This document shows, piece by piece, positions 36,114 to 37,822 of a stretch of DNA of 64,000 nt (positions within the stretch are counted from its first letter, which is position 1; every line of letters begins with the position of its first letter). The translations under genes and the position numbers were made by a program. Where the stretch lies: contig CAYFHS010000001.1 of NCBI GenBank assembly GCA_964342815.1, positions 51,749-115,748 on the forward strand, written 5' to 3'. The notes beneath the pieces are model-generated. The model saw only the letters and a list, made by a program, of their open reading frames with translations. It ran no database searches and was not told where the DNA came from. This DNA is from an uncultured archaeon. Lineage in GTDB: Archaea; Thermoplasmatota; Penumbrarchaeia; JASLWR01.

Positions 36114-36386
36114 ATGATAATAAGTAAAGTGATCGGAACTCCCACCTCGACATTCAAGATAAAGGAGCTAAACGGCAGTAAATTACTGGTCGTTCTACCT
36201 TTGAATCCCATGAATATGAGACCCGAGGGAACACCTTTCATCTGCGAGGACAGGCTGGGAGCCGGGAGGGGTAATCTCGTCCTGATCAGCAGCACCAACC
36301 GCAAGGGCAGCCTGGTGGATGCCTGTGTGGTGGGTATACTGGATTCGCTGGAGATAGAGAACCGGGTGGTCTACGAAACGGAATGA
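36114..36386 (+). CDS. Microcompartment vertex protein, EutN/CcmL family (BMC-P)
   Basis: MIISKVIG...T.K...GSKLLVV.P....G......D.LGAG.G.LVL......VDACVVGILD over 90 aa. Confidence 0.9.
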   Translation: MIISKVIGTPTSTFKIKELNGSKLLVVLPLNPMNMRPEGTPFICEDRLGAGRGNLVLISSTNRKGSLVDACVVGILDSLEIENRVVYETE

Positions 36387-36569
36387 GCATAAACCGACAG
36401 AGCCCTATAATTTTCGATCAAATAATTGGAATAGCTTTCATTTGGATAATCGAATTATTTCGTAACAAAATGAGATTAGTTGCCTTGCAAAAATAATTAC
36501 AATCAATTAATATTTGAACTCTTTACGAATCTAAAAAAACAATAATAATAAAAAACGGACCGGGATAAT

Positions 36570-37109
36570 TTGGTAAGTTTTGGAATAATTGAGATGCGCT
36601 CACCCGTCAAGGGATTGAAACTCGTCGCTGAGGTCCAGACCGGAGGCGATGTGGAGCCCATAATGATAAAGGCGGATGATCCGAAATATTTCATTGTCAT
36701 ATTCCGAGGAAGGCGGGACGAGCTTATTACCGTACTCGACGCGGTTTATAAAAGCAACGGGCGTGATTACCTAAAAAAGACTATTATACCATCACCTCAC
36801 CCGGAGCTTTTAGAGGTCCTTCTGCTGAAAGGTACCGGAGAAAACGTGAAGCATCTAGGATTGATGGAGATCAATGGTTACGGAGCAATGATGAAATGTG
36901 CCGATATTGTTCTGAAGACCCCCGCAATGGCGGTTCTGAGCATTGTTTTCGATACTTTGACGGGAACAGGTCAATTAGCCATAGCAGGCGTGGACACGGT
37001 TTTTCCGTCGCTGTTCATGGAGATGAGAGGGATCTGCGGCAGCCTGAATATACGAAGCGCATCCGTGATCAGCACCCCTGGAAAAAAGATCATAGAGGCA
37101 ATTTTGTAA
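36570..37109 (+). CDS. Divergent tandem BMC-domain shell protein (BMC-T-like)
   Basis: Two BMC-like halves: SFGIIEMRS...IIPSPHPELL and HLGLMEINGYGAMMKCADIVLK...VISTP; TTG start. Confidence 0.72.
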   Translation: MVSFGIIEMRSPVKGLKLVAEVQTGGDVEPIMIKADDPKYFIVIFRGRRDELITVLDAVYKSNGRDYLKKTIIPSPHPELLEVLLLKGTGENVKHLGLMEINGYGAMMKCADIVLKTPAMAVLSIVFDTLTGTGQLAIAGVDTVFPSLFMEMRGICGSLNIRSASVISTPGKKIIEAIL

Positions 37110-37162
37110 ACGTGGCAGTATTTACGATTAATGATATTGAATAAATGAATAGAGGTGAATAT

Positions 37163-37822
37163 ATGGCGAACAAGACCATAGGTGTGATAGAGACCGAGGG
37201 ACTGCTCGATGCGTTCCTGGCGAGCGATGCAATGATCAAAGGGGCAAACGTGGAATTGACCGCAAGATATCTTCTTGGGGGGGGTGTGGTGACCCTTGTC
37301 ATTTCCGGTGCTCCCGCGGCTGTAAAATCAGCTATTGATATTACTGAAAAGGATTTTATAAATAAGAATATCCGAACTGCCATCATACCGAACATTTCCG
37401 GCAAGGTGGCGGAAATCATGCTCTCCACCGGAGAATCGCCGAAGAAACATCCCTCAAGCCGTGGCGGGATACTTAAAAAACGCGAACGTGAACCGTCAGC
37501 AGCACCCAGGGCTGCCCCGGGTCGAGGCAGCAGCGTACCATCCATATTCGATACGAATCTTGGATCGGATGACCATCTCGAAAGTTCATACAAGAAAAGA
37601 CGCGCTACCGTTGAATCGGAAAAGGACATCAAAAAACGGCAGGCTCTGATAATCCAGTATCTGGTGGCCAACAGGCACAACAAGGTATCCATAAGCAATA
37701 TGGAAAAGGTGATACCAAATGCTTCGAAGGTCACTCTGAGGCGGGACCTGCACGAACTGATCGACCAGGGAAAGATCGAGAAGGTGGGTCGGGGCAGGGC
37801 CACACATTACAAGATACGCTGA
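37163..37822 (+). CDS. BMC-H shell protein fused through a low-complexity linker to a C-terminal DeoR-like winged helix-turn-helix
   Basis: TIGVIETEGLLDAFLASDAMIKGANVEL..GGGVVTLVISG...VKSAI..IIPN; C-terminal SKVTLRRDLHELIDQGKIEKVGRGRATHY; RBS GAGGTGA at 37152-37158. Confidence 0.9.
   Translation: MANKTIGVIETEGLLDAFLASDAMIKGANVELTARYLLGGGVVTLVISGAPAAVKSAIDITEKDFINKNIRTAIIPNISGKVAEIMLSTGESPKKHPSSRGGILKKREREPSAAPRAAPGRGSSVPSIFDTNLGSDDHLESSYKKRRATVESEKDIKKRQALIIQYLVANRHNKVSISNMEKVIPNASKVTLRRDLHELIDQGKIEKVGRGRATHYKIR

What the first reader, a model, noticed from the sequence alone, without database searches (positions are those of the whole stretch)
36114..37822. Minimal bacterial-microcompartment shell operon (BMC-P, BMC-T, BMC-H) in an archaeal chromosome, with no cargo enzyme
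Seen: three co-oriented genes encoding an EutN/CcmL pentamer, a tandem BMC-like protein and a BMC-H protein. The BMC-H keeps the edge-contact D-A-M-x-K motif and the GGG pore loop. An archaeal-style RBS (GAGGTGA) precedes it, and rpl37e/Sm lie about 1.4 kb away with one peptidase gene between. Known: pentamer, hexamer and trimer are the parts set for an icosahedral BMC shell; to my knowledge such loci are described from Bacteria, not Archaea, and usually sit beside signature enzymes (aldehyde dehydrogenase, phosphotransacylase, glycyl-radical enzyme, Rubisco). None of those is in this window. Inference: a horizontally acquired and remodelled shell with a new or remotely encoded cargo. Best candidate for an undescribed system here.
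Basis: partly seen in the sequence, partly recalled or inferred. Interest (0 to 1): 0.95.

Follow-up and report, generated by a model that had tools for sequence, protein, structure and literature searches.

The report
Archaeal microcompartment shell trio, DNA-binding hexamer
Three real shell-protein genes of a protein-walled organelle sit in a marine archaeon (Thermoplasmatota, order JASLWR01). Such organelles were already reported for this order in 2025 and the enzyme operon lies elsewhere, so what is new is that the trio is a conserved second shell set whose hexamer subunit is fused to a DNA-binding domain.

Summary
Genes at 36114-36386, 36570-37109 and 37163-37822 encode a EutN/CcmL pentamer protein, a diverged PduT-like tandem-BMC protein and a BMC-H protein.

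The "undescribed in Archaea, no cargo" reading is only partly right:
- The same-genus relative is JASLWR01, a Thermoplasmatota order whose archaeal microcompartments a 2025 preprint (PMC12747264) already describes.
- All three sister genomes carry a full sugar-phosphate (DERA/AldDH) operon on another contig.
- The TARA run that holds this locus at 100% identity also yields a 119-kb contig with that operon. It was simply not binned.

The trio is therefore a second, vertically inherited shell module. It lies beside the M24 peptidase, L37e and LSm genes in at least 8 assemblies, evolves under purifying selection and shows no composition break.

Not mentioned in the preprint's main text (its supplements were not available):
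- The EutK-like but independent BMC-H/winged-helix fusion, with only about 7 clusters among 1.84 billion representatives.
- A solitary paralog subfamily.
- A unique cluster of AATCGAAT boxes in the trio's own promoter.
- A G8/G9 frameshift tract in the pore codons.

This scan had already met the main operon type in another genome. Verdict: new variant of a known kind, moderate interest.

The parts
35949..36067 (.). Promoter region with three AATCGAAT boxes: 35951-35958 on the minus strand, 35982-35989 and 36060-36067 on the plus strand. The first two form a perfect 10-nt inverted repeat (35949-35958 / 35982-35991). Candidate operator array.
   Evidence: Four of the five copies in the 64-kb window lie here or in the P-T gap. 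This is the only place in the 4.35-Mb assembly with 3 or more copies within 600 bp. ATCGAAT/ATTCGAT boxes recur upstream of the orthologous P gene in G001, L045, L042/L043 and G003. That the winged helix binds them is inference.
36074..36085 (+). AT-rich palindrome (TATA-like) about 30-40 nt before the P start codon, directly after box 3.
   Evidence: Sequence reading and palindrome I10. A promoter function was not tested.
36114..36386 (+). BMC-P (EutN/CcmL-type vertex protein), 90 aa.
   Evidence: PF03319, 58.5 bits, profile positions 1-83 of 83. 98% identical to G001, 83% to G003 and 58% to G002. dN/dS 0.03 against G001.
36448..36455 (+). Fourth AATCGAAT box, in the 183-nt gap between P and T.
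   Evidence: The L045 ortholog also has a box in its P-T gap.
36570..37109 (+). Diverged tandem-BMC protein (PduT-like BMC-T, single-layer type), 179 aa, TTG start. Asp stands where PduT-type proteins have the Fe-S cysteine.
   Evidence: PF00936 in two stretches, 31.5 bits. phmmer hits to PduT-like chains, with the D-for-C position visible in the alignment to 3nwg. Model with two BMC domains and Foldseek hits to PduT and HO BMC-T. Cyclic homotrimer predicted at ipSAE 0.76 against a best control of 0.01. Evolves fast: 66%, 36% and 27% identity to orthologs, dN/dS 0.23.
37151..37157 (+). GAGGTGA ribosome-binding site before the ATG at 37163.
   Evidence: Sequence. Public gene calls start at this ATG and give 219 aa.
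37163..37423 (+). BMC-H domain of the fusion protein. It keeps the edge Lys and Asn (D-A-M-I-K-G-A-N) and the GGG pore loop. The edge Arg of I-P-R-P-H is replaced (I-P-N-I-S).
   Evidence: PF00936, 56.7 bits. Alignments to EutM and the HO BMC-H. Fold matches. Comparison with the main-operon H of G001.
37277..37284 (+). G8 homopolymer inside the codons of the GGG pore loop. A G9 frameshift allele exists in other data sets.
   Evidence: G8 in the window, L029 and L030. G9 in a Logan contig of run X3, in L031, and implied by the 178-aa cluster P0004.
37430..37570 (+). Disordered basic linker (9 K+R and 5 D+E in 47 residues) holding a conserved short motif (V-P-S-I-F-D).
   Evidence: pLDDT below 50 for residues 96-142. 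Composition. Motif conserved in orthologs. No other true copy of the motif in the genome.
37571..37822 (+). Long helix plus DeoR-type winged helix-turn-helix (residues 143-225), then the stop codon.
   Evidence: HTH_DeoR, 26.9 bits alone. pLDDT above 90. VIA Z about 10 to many winged-helix DNA or Z-DNA binders. No EutK_C hit, whereas E. coli EutK scores 90 bits on EutK_C.

Best explanation
The trio is a conserved second (satellite-type) shell module of the sugar-phosphate/deoxyribose-type archaeal microcompartment of JASLWR01 Thermoplasmatota. It is not a cargo-less new organelle. It supplies a vertex pentamer (P), a PduT-like pseudohexameric trimer that has lost the Fe-S cysteine (T), and a hexamer subunit (H) whose C-terminus carries a basic disordered linker and a DeoR-type winged helix. 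By analogy with solved shells, that C-terminus should point to the cytosol.

The H protein is therefore most likely a nucleic-acid-binding shell or shell-derived component. It is the functional counterpart of EutK in Eut compartments and of the Lys/Arg-tailed pentamer of Hodarchaeales compartments. Its most likely specific target is the set of AATCGAAT boxes in the module's own promoter, which would give autoregulation and possibly tether compartments to DNA.

Shown: domain content, folds, conservation, purifying selection, native archaeal context, the enzyme operon elsewhere in the lineage and in the same sequencing run, and the unique box cluster.

Inferred: incorporation into the shell, outward orientation, DNA binding, and the boxes as targets.
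For: Domains and folds. The T homotrimer is supported by the model (ipSAE 0.76, best control 0.01, partner pLDDT 88, at least 95% contact agreement). PduT-like trimers are solved, so this shows likeness rather than proof.

Conservation: the trio lies next to the M24 peptidase gene in G001, G003 and G002 and in further metagenome contigs. dN/dS against G001 is 0.03 for P, 0.23 for T and 0.07 for H, against 0.09 and 0.19 for the housekeeping neighbours M24 and FolC.

Main operon: AldDH, Nuo51/RnfC-like, T, TPI, RpiB, P x3, H and a DeoC fusion in G001, with equivalents in G002, G003 and G005. In run ERR868468 it lies on a 119-kb contig that is 78-80% identical in DNA to G001's operon. The window is 79-83% identical to G001, and the contig's tetranucleotide correlation to G000 is 0.92.

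Nucleic-acid binding at the shell surface has precedents. Du et al. 2025 show experimentally that K/R tails on the AMC-P2 pentamer bind DNA and RNA. G002's own main-operon P2 has such a tail. EutK carries a helix-turn-helix domain of unknown role.

Boxes.

A metatranscriptome contig 100% identical to 37411-37562 exists. This is only a weak hint of expression.
Against: - No experiment shows that these three proteins enter a shell.
- The edge arginine of the Asn-Arg-Lys triad needed for PduA tiling (title of PDB 4p2s) is replaced in all orthologs. The H protein may therefore tile poorly, as EutK is said to.
- Solitary paralogs of the fusion (subfamily B, and a two-HTH form in G002) sit among housekeeping genes with degenerate shell motifs. 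The architecture can evidently work away from shell genes.
- AATCGAAT is not clustered in the promoter of the main operon, and G002 lacks the box.
- The 119-kb contig is assigned to this organism by inference, not by assembly.
- A G9 frameshift allele in several data sets suggests the H protein can be dispensed with.
Confidence: 0.55

Rival explanations
1. The H/winged-helix protein is mainly a transcription factor. The BMC domain has been re-used as a hexamerising (or shell-sensing) scaffold for six DeoR-type DNA-binding domains. These bind the multiple AATCGAAT operators (possibly looping DNA) and control the trio, and perhaps sugar-phosphate catabolism. P and T remain ordinary shell parts.
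For: - HTH_DeoR scores above Pfam's cut-off.
- DeoR-family regulators are recurrent ancillary genes of sugar-type BMC loci (PMC4207490).
- The box cluster is unique in the genome, includes an inverted pair, and is conserved in orthologous promoters.
- Solitary paralogs lie beside MCM and PdxS with degenerate edge and pore motifs.
- The edge Arg is lost.
Against: - The subfamily found in the trio keeps the edge Lys and Asn and the GGG pore.
- It is always encoded with P and T.
- No sensor domain of DeoR type is present.
- There are no boxes in the main-operon promoter.
- This reading does not exclude the best explanation.
Confidence: 0.25
2. One reading: the trio builds its own minimal compartment (P + T + H are enough for a shell), independent of the sugar-phosphate organelle. 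Its cargo would be new, remotely encoded or nucleic acid.
For: [quoted passage not shown]
- It is deeply diverged from the main-operon paralogs: P 32-41%, H about 42-47% over the core, and T with no significant BLAST match.
- It has its own promoter elements.
- The G000 bin has no other shell genes at the search threshold.
Against: - Every complete-enough relative that has the trio also has the main operon, and the same run holds one for this species.
- No conserved candidate cargo lies beside the trio. The neighbours are a sulfotransferase, M24 peptidase, L37e and LSm, and the upstream neighbour varies.
- No protein carrying the linker motif or an obvious encapsulation peptide was found.
Confidence: 0.12
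3. Artefact: a bacterial contig or chimeric join mis-binned into an archaeal MAG.
For: The genome is a MAG (116 contigs, 88.9% complete, 3.2% contamination).
Against: - The locus sits 88 kb into a 343-kb contig.
- The same order, P-T-H-M24-(L37e)-LSm, appears in at least 8 independent assemblies from several studies.
- Single DNA contigs from two samples span T, H and M24.
- GC and tetranucleotide usage are typical of the genome.
Confidence: 0.01

Closest known systems
Archaeal microcompartments (AMCs) of Hodarchaeales, JASLWR01 and SpSt-1190 (Du et al., bioRxiv 2025, PMC12747264)
   Same: Same lineage: the same-genus genome is JASLWR01. Same shell protein families. The relatives' main operons match the described sugar-phosphate type, with T(dp), T(s), three P, one H, AldDH, an NADH-dehydrogenase-like protein, TPI, RpiB and DERA. 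Shared theme of DNA-binding appendages on shell proteins.
   Different: The paper's main text describes only the main operons. It contains no occurrence of satellite, HTH, DeoR, regulator or transcription. Its supplements were not available here. The trio is a separate locus with its own P, a Cys-less T and an H fused to a folded winged helix rather than a K/R tail on a pentamer.
EutK of the ethanolamine-utilisation microcompartment (E. coli b2438)
   Same: Same architecture: an N-terminal BMC-H domain plus a C-terminal helix-turn-helix domain thought to bind nucleic acid, with no role yet known (PMC5821096). The BMC domains are 42% identical over 50 residues.
   Different: EutK's C-domain is EutK_C (PF16365, 90 bits). 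The window protein has no EutK_C hit at E up to 1 and matches HTH_DeoR instead. BLASTP finds no similarity outside the BMC domain. Its linker is about 50 disordered residues plus a long helix, and its context is not a eut operon. This looks like an independent fusion.
PduT-type BMC-T (single-layer tandem BMC trimer with a 4Fe-4S site)
   Same: Tandem BMC fold, with best sequence and structure matches to PduT, Desulfitobacterium 3nwg and HO BMC-T. Predicted cyclic trimer.
   Different: Asp replaces the cluster-binding Cys. The main-operon T of G001 keeps C-P-G-K. Very fast evolution.
Satellite shell loci of bacterial microcompartments (Sutter et al. 2021, PMC8217296)
   Same: Shell genes lie away from the enzyme operon, probably under separate control, and are thought to tune shell properties.
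   Different: It contains both H and P, so by that paper's rule it would count formally as a 'main locus'. It also carries a DNA-binding fusion.
DeoR-family transcription regulators
   Same: The winged helix matches the DeoR-type HTH. Such regulators accompany sugar-type BMC loci.
   Different: The domain is C-terminal, not N-terminal. No DeoR C-terminal sensor domain is present. It is fused to a shell protein.

Membership tests
BMC shell locus (Sutter et al. 2021 definition) | At least one BMC-H (PF00936) and one BMC-P (PF03319) gene in one contiguous locus | tested here: met
   PF03319 58.5 bits; PF00936 31.5 and 56.7 bits. Definition read.
BMC shell locus (Sutter et al. 2021 definition) | Signature or core enzymes (AldDH, PTAC, aldolase and the like) encoded in the same locus | tested here: not met
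   The neighbours are a PKD protein, a sulfotransferase, M24 peptidase, L37e, LSm and FolC. tblastn with G001's operon proteins finds no ortholog in the G000 bin.
JASLWR01 archaeal microcompartment (Du et al. 2025) | Host belongs to the JASLWR01 lineage of Thermoplasmatota | tested here: met
   The same-genus genome G001 is JASLWR010000022.1, Thermoplasmatota ETNP2_MAG_1. The orthologous locus is 79-83% identical in DNA.
JASLWR01 archaeal microcompartment (Du et al. 2025) | Sugar-phosphate operon (DERA, AldDH, NADH-dehydrogenase-like, TPI, RpiB plus H, T and three P) in the same genome | tested here: inconclusive
   Absent from the 89%-complete bin. Present in G001-G003. Present on a 119-kb contig of the same run, with matching divergence and tetranucleotide signature. 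Physical linkage is not shown.
BMC-H that tiles into shell facets (PduA-type) | Edge lysine (D-x-x-x-K) and asparagine | tested here: met
   D-A-M-I-K-G-A-N aligned to EutM and HO BMC-H. The D-A-M-I-K-G-A-N stretch is kept in G001 and largely in G003, but is degenerate in G002 (D-S-I-S-R-S-V-K).
BMC-H that tiles into shell facets (PduA-type) | Edge arginine of the I-P-R-P-H motif (Asn-Arg-Lys triad) | tested here: not met
   I-P-N-I-S here, against V-I-P-R-P-H in G001's main-operon H. Replaced in all four orthologs. The triad is named in the title of PDB 4p2s.
BMC-H that tiles into shell facets (PduA-type) | Forms a cyclic hexamer | not tested
EutK family | BMC domain followed by the EutK_C domain (PF16365) | tested here: not met
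   E. coli EutK scores 90.1 bits on PF16365. The window protein has no such hit at E up to 1, whole or as the C-terminus alone. BLASTP shows similarity only in the BMC domain.
PduT-type BMC-T | Two BMC domains in tandem that form a trimer | tested here: met
   Two PF00936 stretches. Fold matches. Trimer predicted at ipSAE 0.76 against 0.01 for the best control. This is a prediction that may lean on solved relatives.
PduT-type BMC-T | Cysteine that ligands the central 4Fe-4S cluster | tested here: not met
   Asp aligns with the Cys of the C-P-G-K motif in 3nwg. The position varies among orthologs.
BMC-P (EutN/CcmL) | Full-length EutN_CcmL domain | tested here: met
   Profile positions 1-83 of 83, 58.5 bits.
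BMC-P (EutN/CcmL) | Pentamer formation | not tested
   Five copies exceed the limit of the complex tool.
DeoR-family regulator | DeoR-type HTH | tested here: met
   PF08220 at 24 and 26.9 bits against a cut-off of 21. Winged-helix fold with Z about 10.
DeoR-family regulator | C-terminal DeoR sensor or oligomerisation domain, with the HTH at the N-terminus | tested here: not met
   No such Pfam hit. The HTH is C-terminal and the N-terminal domain is BMC.

The most novel reading that the evidence does not exclude
BMC-hexamer/DeoR-winged-helix fusions (two subfamilies, up to three paralogs per genome, so far found only in JASLWR01-like Thermoplasmatota) are a new class of shell-derived, hexavalent DNA-binding proteins. 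The trio-encoded form would couple microcompartment assembly to gene expression, or anchor compartments on DNA, through the AATCGAAT operator array. The solitary form beside MCM would have left the shell altogether to act on the chromosome. The G8/G9 tract would switch the trio form on and off.
Probability: 0.2. Interest if true: 0.7.

Novelty: new variant of a known kind. Interest (0 to 1): 0.45.

Why it matters
The headline claim (shell genes in an archaeon) is already in the literature, so it adds little. What remains useful:
1. It shows that the JASLWR01 organelle has a conserved second shell module that the published description does not discuss.
2. It gives a second, independent case of a shell hexamer fused to a DNA-binding domain. 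That domain's role has been an open puzzle in EutK since 2010. Here there is a concrete candidate DNA target, which makes the question testable by a gel shift.
3. Together with the DNA-binding tails on Hodarchaeales pentamers, it suggests that DNA contact is a recurrent feature of deoxyribose-burning compartments.
4. It warns that "no cargo in this MAG" can be a binning gap.

Tried and rejected
- The search for related loci with the six-sequence alignment failed for lack of a conserved stretch. It was repeated with four sequences.
- The preprint's supplementary tables are not held, so I could not check whether the trio is listed there.
- AATCGAAT in the main-operon promoter: none in the roughly 530 nt before the operon on L036. 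L036 has 8 copies in 21 kb, against a genome mean of 0.075 per kb, but they are scattered, G001's operon has only one, and the count was made post hoc. I do not use it.
- The linker motif (V/I/L-P-S-I/L/V-F-D) was searched in all six frames of the genome and of the main operons. No other genuine copy turned up, so there is no lead to a docking partner.
- Contexts of the remote fusion clusters P0019 and P0021: contigs under 2 kb, uninformative.
- RNA: contigs of two metatranscriptome runs match the region only in short pieces, one of them inside the H gene at 37411-37562. Contigs cannot show strand, level or a lack of expression, and DNA carry-over is possible.
- Clusters that matched the profile over the linker (P0052, P0062, P0083 and others) are BMC-H proteins with long acidic or mixed tails and no HTH.
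- Origin of the trio (a duplication of main-operon genes or a separate transfer) was not resolved. Identities to main-operon paralogs are only 32-47%, and I built no tree because named outgroups were lacking.
- Hexamer and pentamer predictions could not be run within the copy limit.
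Full report
**1. What is there.**
The plus strand holds three co-oriented ORFs.
- P, 36114-36386 (90 aa): a full-length EutN_CcmL match (58.5 bits).
- T, 36570-37109 (179 aa, TTG start as in the G001 ortholog): two BMC stretches (31.5 bits).
- H, ORF 37145-37822, most likely starting at the ATG at 37163 behind GAGGTGA (219 aa in public gene calls): BMC (56.7 bits) plus HTH_DeoR (24 bits; 26.9 bits for the last 83 residues alone).

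The AlphaFold model of H (mean pLDDT 72.6, 12-sequence alignment) has three parts: a BMC fold at residues 11-93, a disordered stretch at 96-142, and a long helix plus winged helix at 143-225 with pLDDT above 90. Its N-domain superposes on EutM, PduA, CsoS1 and HO BMC-H (TM by target 0.8-0.87; Z 13.7). Its C-domain superposes on generic winged-helix DNA or Z-DNA binders (Z about 10).

The model of T (pLDDT 72.9) has two BMC domains and matches PduT, 3nwg and HO BMC-T (E 1e-10 to 1e-12). phmmer to PDB chains agrees. A three-copy prediction gives a cyclic trimer: ipSAE 0.76, best control 0.01, partner pLDDT 88, at least 95% contact agreement. The calibration mark was reached by 20 of 30 solved pairs and 1 of 23 single chains, counts that hold only roughly here. 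Solved PduT-like trimers mean this may reflect likeness rather than binding.

The fusion was not part of this finding's text.

**2. Whose genome.**
The window is G000:C1:51749-115748, in a 4.35-Mb MAG of 116 contigs that is 88.9% complete with 3.2% contamination. The same-genus genome G001 is JASLWR01, "Thermoplasmatota archaeon ETNP2_MAG_1". The neighbours are archaeal: L37e, LSm and M24.

A chimeric join is excluded for practical purposes:
- The order P-T-H-M24-(L37e)-LSm recurs in G001, G002 and G003, in a TARA scaffold and Logan and ENA contigs, and in ENA, Logan and JGI contigs of more distant relatives.
- Single DNA contigs of two samples span 36608-39096 and 36696-39155.
- GC and tetranucleotide usage of the region are ordinary. 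The correlation to the genome is r = 0.65, against a mean of 0.62 for random 2-kb pieces.

**3. Already known.**
Du et al. (bioRxiv, Nov 2025, PMC12747264) report archaeal microcompartments in Hodarchaeales, in "JASLWR01 order from Thermoplasmatota" and in SpSt-1190. They show shell assembly in vitro and in E. coli, and DNA/RNA binding by K/R-rich tails on a pentamer. "Not described from Archaea" no longer holds.

This scan also met the main operon type before, in another genome (e1-360985).

The preprint's main text has no occurrence of satellite, HTH, DeoR, regulator or transcription. Its supplements were not available.

**4. Where the cargo is.**
PF00936 and PF03319 hit only this locus in the bin. 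Proteins of G001's operon find no ortholog there.

G001, G002, G003 and G005 (another order of the class) do have large operons. G001's operon encodes a T(dp)-like protein, P, AldDH, a Nuo51/RnfC-like protein, T, P, TPI, RpiB, P, H, a DeoC-aldolase fusion and a weak DHH-like protein. That is the sugar-phosphate type.

An AldDH in the same 90%-identity cluster as the top hit (that hit is 95% identical to G001's enzyme) lies on a 119,641-bp contig assembled from TARA run ERR868468, within a complete operon. A Logan contig of that same run is 100% identical to the window over 4,431 bp.

The 119-kb contig's operon is 78-80% identical in DNA to G001's. The window is 79-83% identical to G001. The contig's tetranucleotide correlation with G000 is 0.92, against a mean of 0.90 for 21-kb pieces of G000.

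The organism therefore most probably has the enzyme operon, and the bin misses it. Linkage is inferred, not shown.

**5. Is the trio functional?**
Against G001, dN/dS is 0.03 (P), 0.23 (T) and 0.07 (H), at dS 0.5-1.0. That is similar to or tighter than M24 (0.09) and FolC (0.19). P is 98%, 83% and 58% identical to the orthologs in G001, G003 and G002. H is 91%, 61% and 35% identical, and T is 66%, 36% and 27%. All three are maintained, and T evolves fast.

**6. Shell-competence features.**
H keeps the edge Lys and Asn and the GGG pore loop. It has lost the Arg of I-P-R-P-H in every ortholog. That residue belongs to the Asn-Arg-Lys triad named essential for Pdu shell assembly in the title of PDB 4p2s.

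T has Asp where PduT-like proteins, and G001's own main-operon T (C-P-G-K), have the Fe-S cysteine.

**7. The fusion family.**
A profile search of 1.84 billion representatives finds only about seven clusters that match over both domains (P0006, P0017-P0021 and fragment P0011). The remaining hits are plain or multi-BMC proteins, or BMC-H with long tails and no HTH. The word-indexed search of 5.8 billion proteins gave 11 hits, all close.

Two subfamilies exist:
- Subfamily A is the trio form.
- Subfamily B is solitary, with degenerate edge and pore motifs. G000 has one at C6:136432-137085 between an SPFH/zinc-ribbon gene and PdxS, with MCM about 1.6 kb further upstream. This is syntenic with G003's copy.

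G002 also has a solitary form with two winged helices.

E. coli EutK has the same architecture but a different C-domain: EutK_C at 90 bits, no such hit here, and BLASTP similarity only in the BMC part. EutK's helix-turn-helix has no known role (PMC5821096).

**8. A candidate DNA target.**
AATCGAAT occurs 5 times in the window, 4 of them at 35951-36455. Two of these form a perfect 10-nt inverted repeat with 23 nt between the arms.

Across the whole assembly there are 327 copies (0.075 per kb). This is the only place with 3 or more within 600 bp.

ATCGAAT/ATTCGAT boxes recur upstream of P in G001, in L045 (H 88% identical) and in L042/L043 and G003 (H about 61-62% identical). They are often attached to the same T-T-T-A-T-A-C-T context. 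G002 lacks them.

That the locus's own winged helix binds these boxes is inference.

**9. Reading.**
Best (0.55): a satellite-type shell module of the lineage's deoxyribose/sugar-phosphate compartment, with a nucleic-acid-binding hexamer subunit.

Main rival (0.25, not exclusive): the fusion is chiefly a hexavalent transcription factor.

Stand-alone compartment: 0.12.

Artefact: about 0.01.

**10. Other points.**
The codons of the GGG pore loop form a G8 run (37277-37284). A G9 frameshift allele appears in a contig of run X3 (another sample), in an ENA assembly (L031), and as the 178-aa cluster P0004. G001 has the run interrupted. At 6-7x depth a sequencing error cannot be excluded.

One metatranscriptome contig matches 37411-37562, which is weak.

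**Verdict.**
This is a new variant of a known kind, interest 0.45.

Noticed in passing
window 37277-37284: A G8 homopolymer encodes the GGG pore loop of the hexamer protein. A G9 allele, which truncates the protein after about 58 residues, is the consensus in a contig of another sample (X3), in ENA contig L031, and in protein cluster P0004 (3 contigs). It could be a real on/off polymorphism or a low-coverage homopolymer error.
   Followed up: partly
G000:C6:136432-137085 (L038:6433-7089): A second, solitary BMC/winged-helix paralog (subfamily B, 218 aa; BMC only 15.6 bits in Pfam). It lies between an SPFH/zinc-ribbon gene and PdxS, with MCM about 1.6 kb further upstream, in synteny with G003 (L024). 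It suggests the fusion also works away from shell genes.
   Followed up: partly
L036 (ENA ERZ976232, run ERR868468, contig k127_1336177, 119,641 bp): A complete sugar-phosphate microcompartment operon of what is very probably the same species, absent from the G000 bin. It shows a binning gap of at least 119 kb.
   Followed up: yes
L020:7679-8704 (G002:C3): A 341-aa solitary variant of the fusion with two winged-helix domains after one BMC domain.
   Followed up: no
L035:3428-5030: In one metagenome variant of the main operon, an AAA_15/AAA_21-type ATPase gene and two small ORFs are inserted between the AldDH and Nuo51-like genes. This could be a mobile or defence-type insert inside the operon.
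   Followed up: no
L014:13836-14351 (G002 main operon): The second pentamer protein carries a Lys-rich tail of about 60 residues, like the DNA-binding AMC-P2 tails reported for Hodarchaeales. G001's ortholog has only a short tail.
   Followed up: no
window 34456-34620: DNA contigs of X1 and X3 show joints that skip 94-140 nt, and loose ends at 34351-34620. This is the region another first-reader note calls a structured IS200/IS605-like element. It looks like a variable or repeated element between the PKD and sulfotransferase genes.
   Followed up: no
window 37820-37825: The stop codons of the hexamer gene (37820-37822, plus strand) and of the convergent M24 peptidase gene (its ORF ends at 37823, minus strand) abut with no spacer. 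This arrangement is kept in G001.
   Followed up: no
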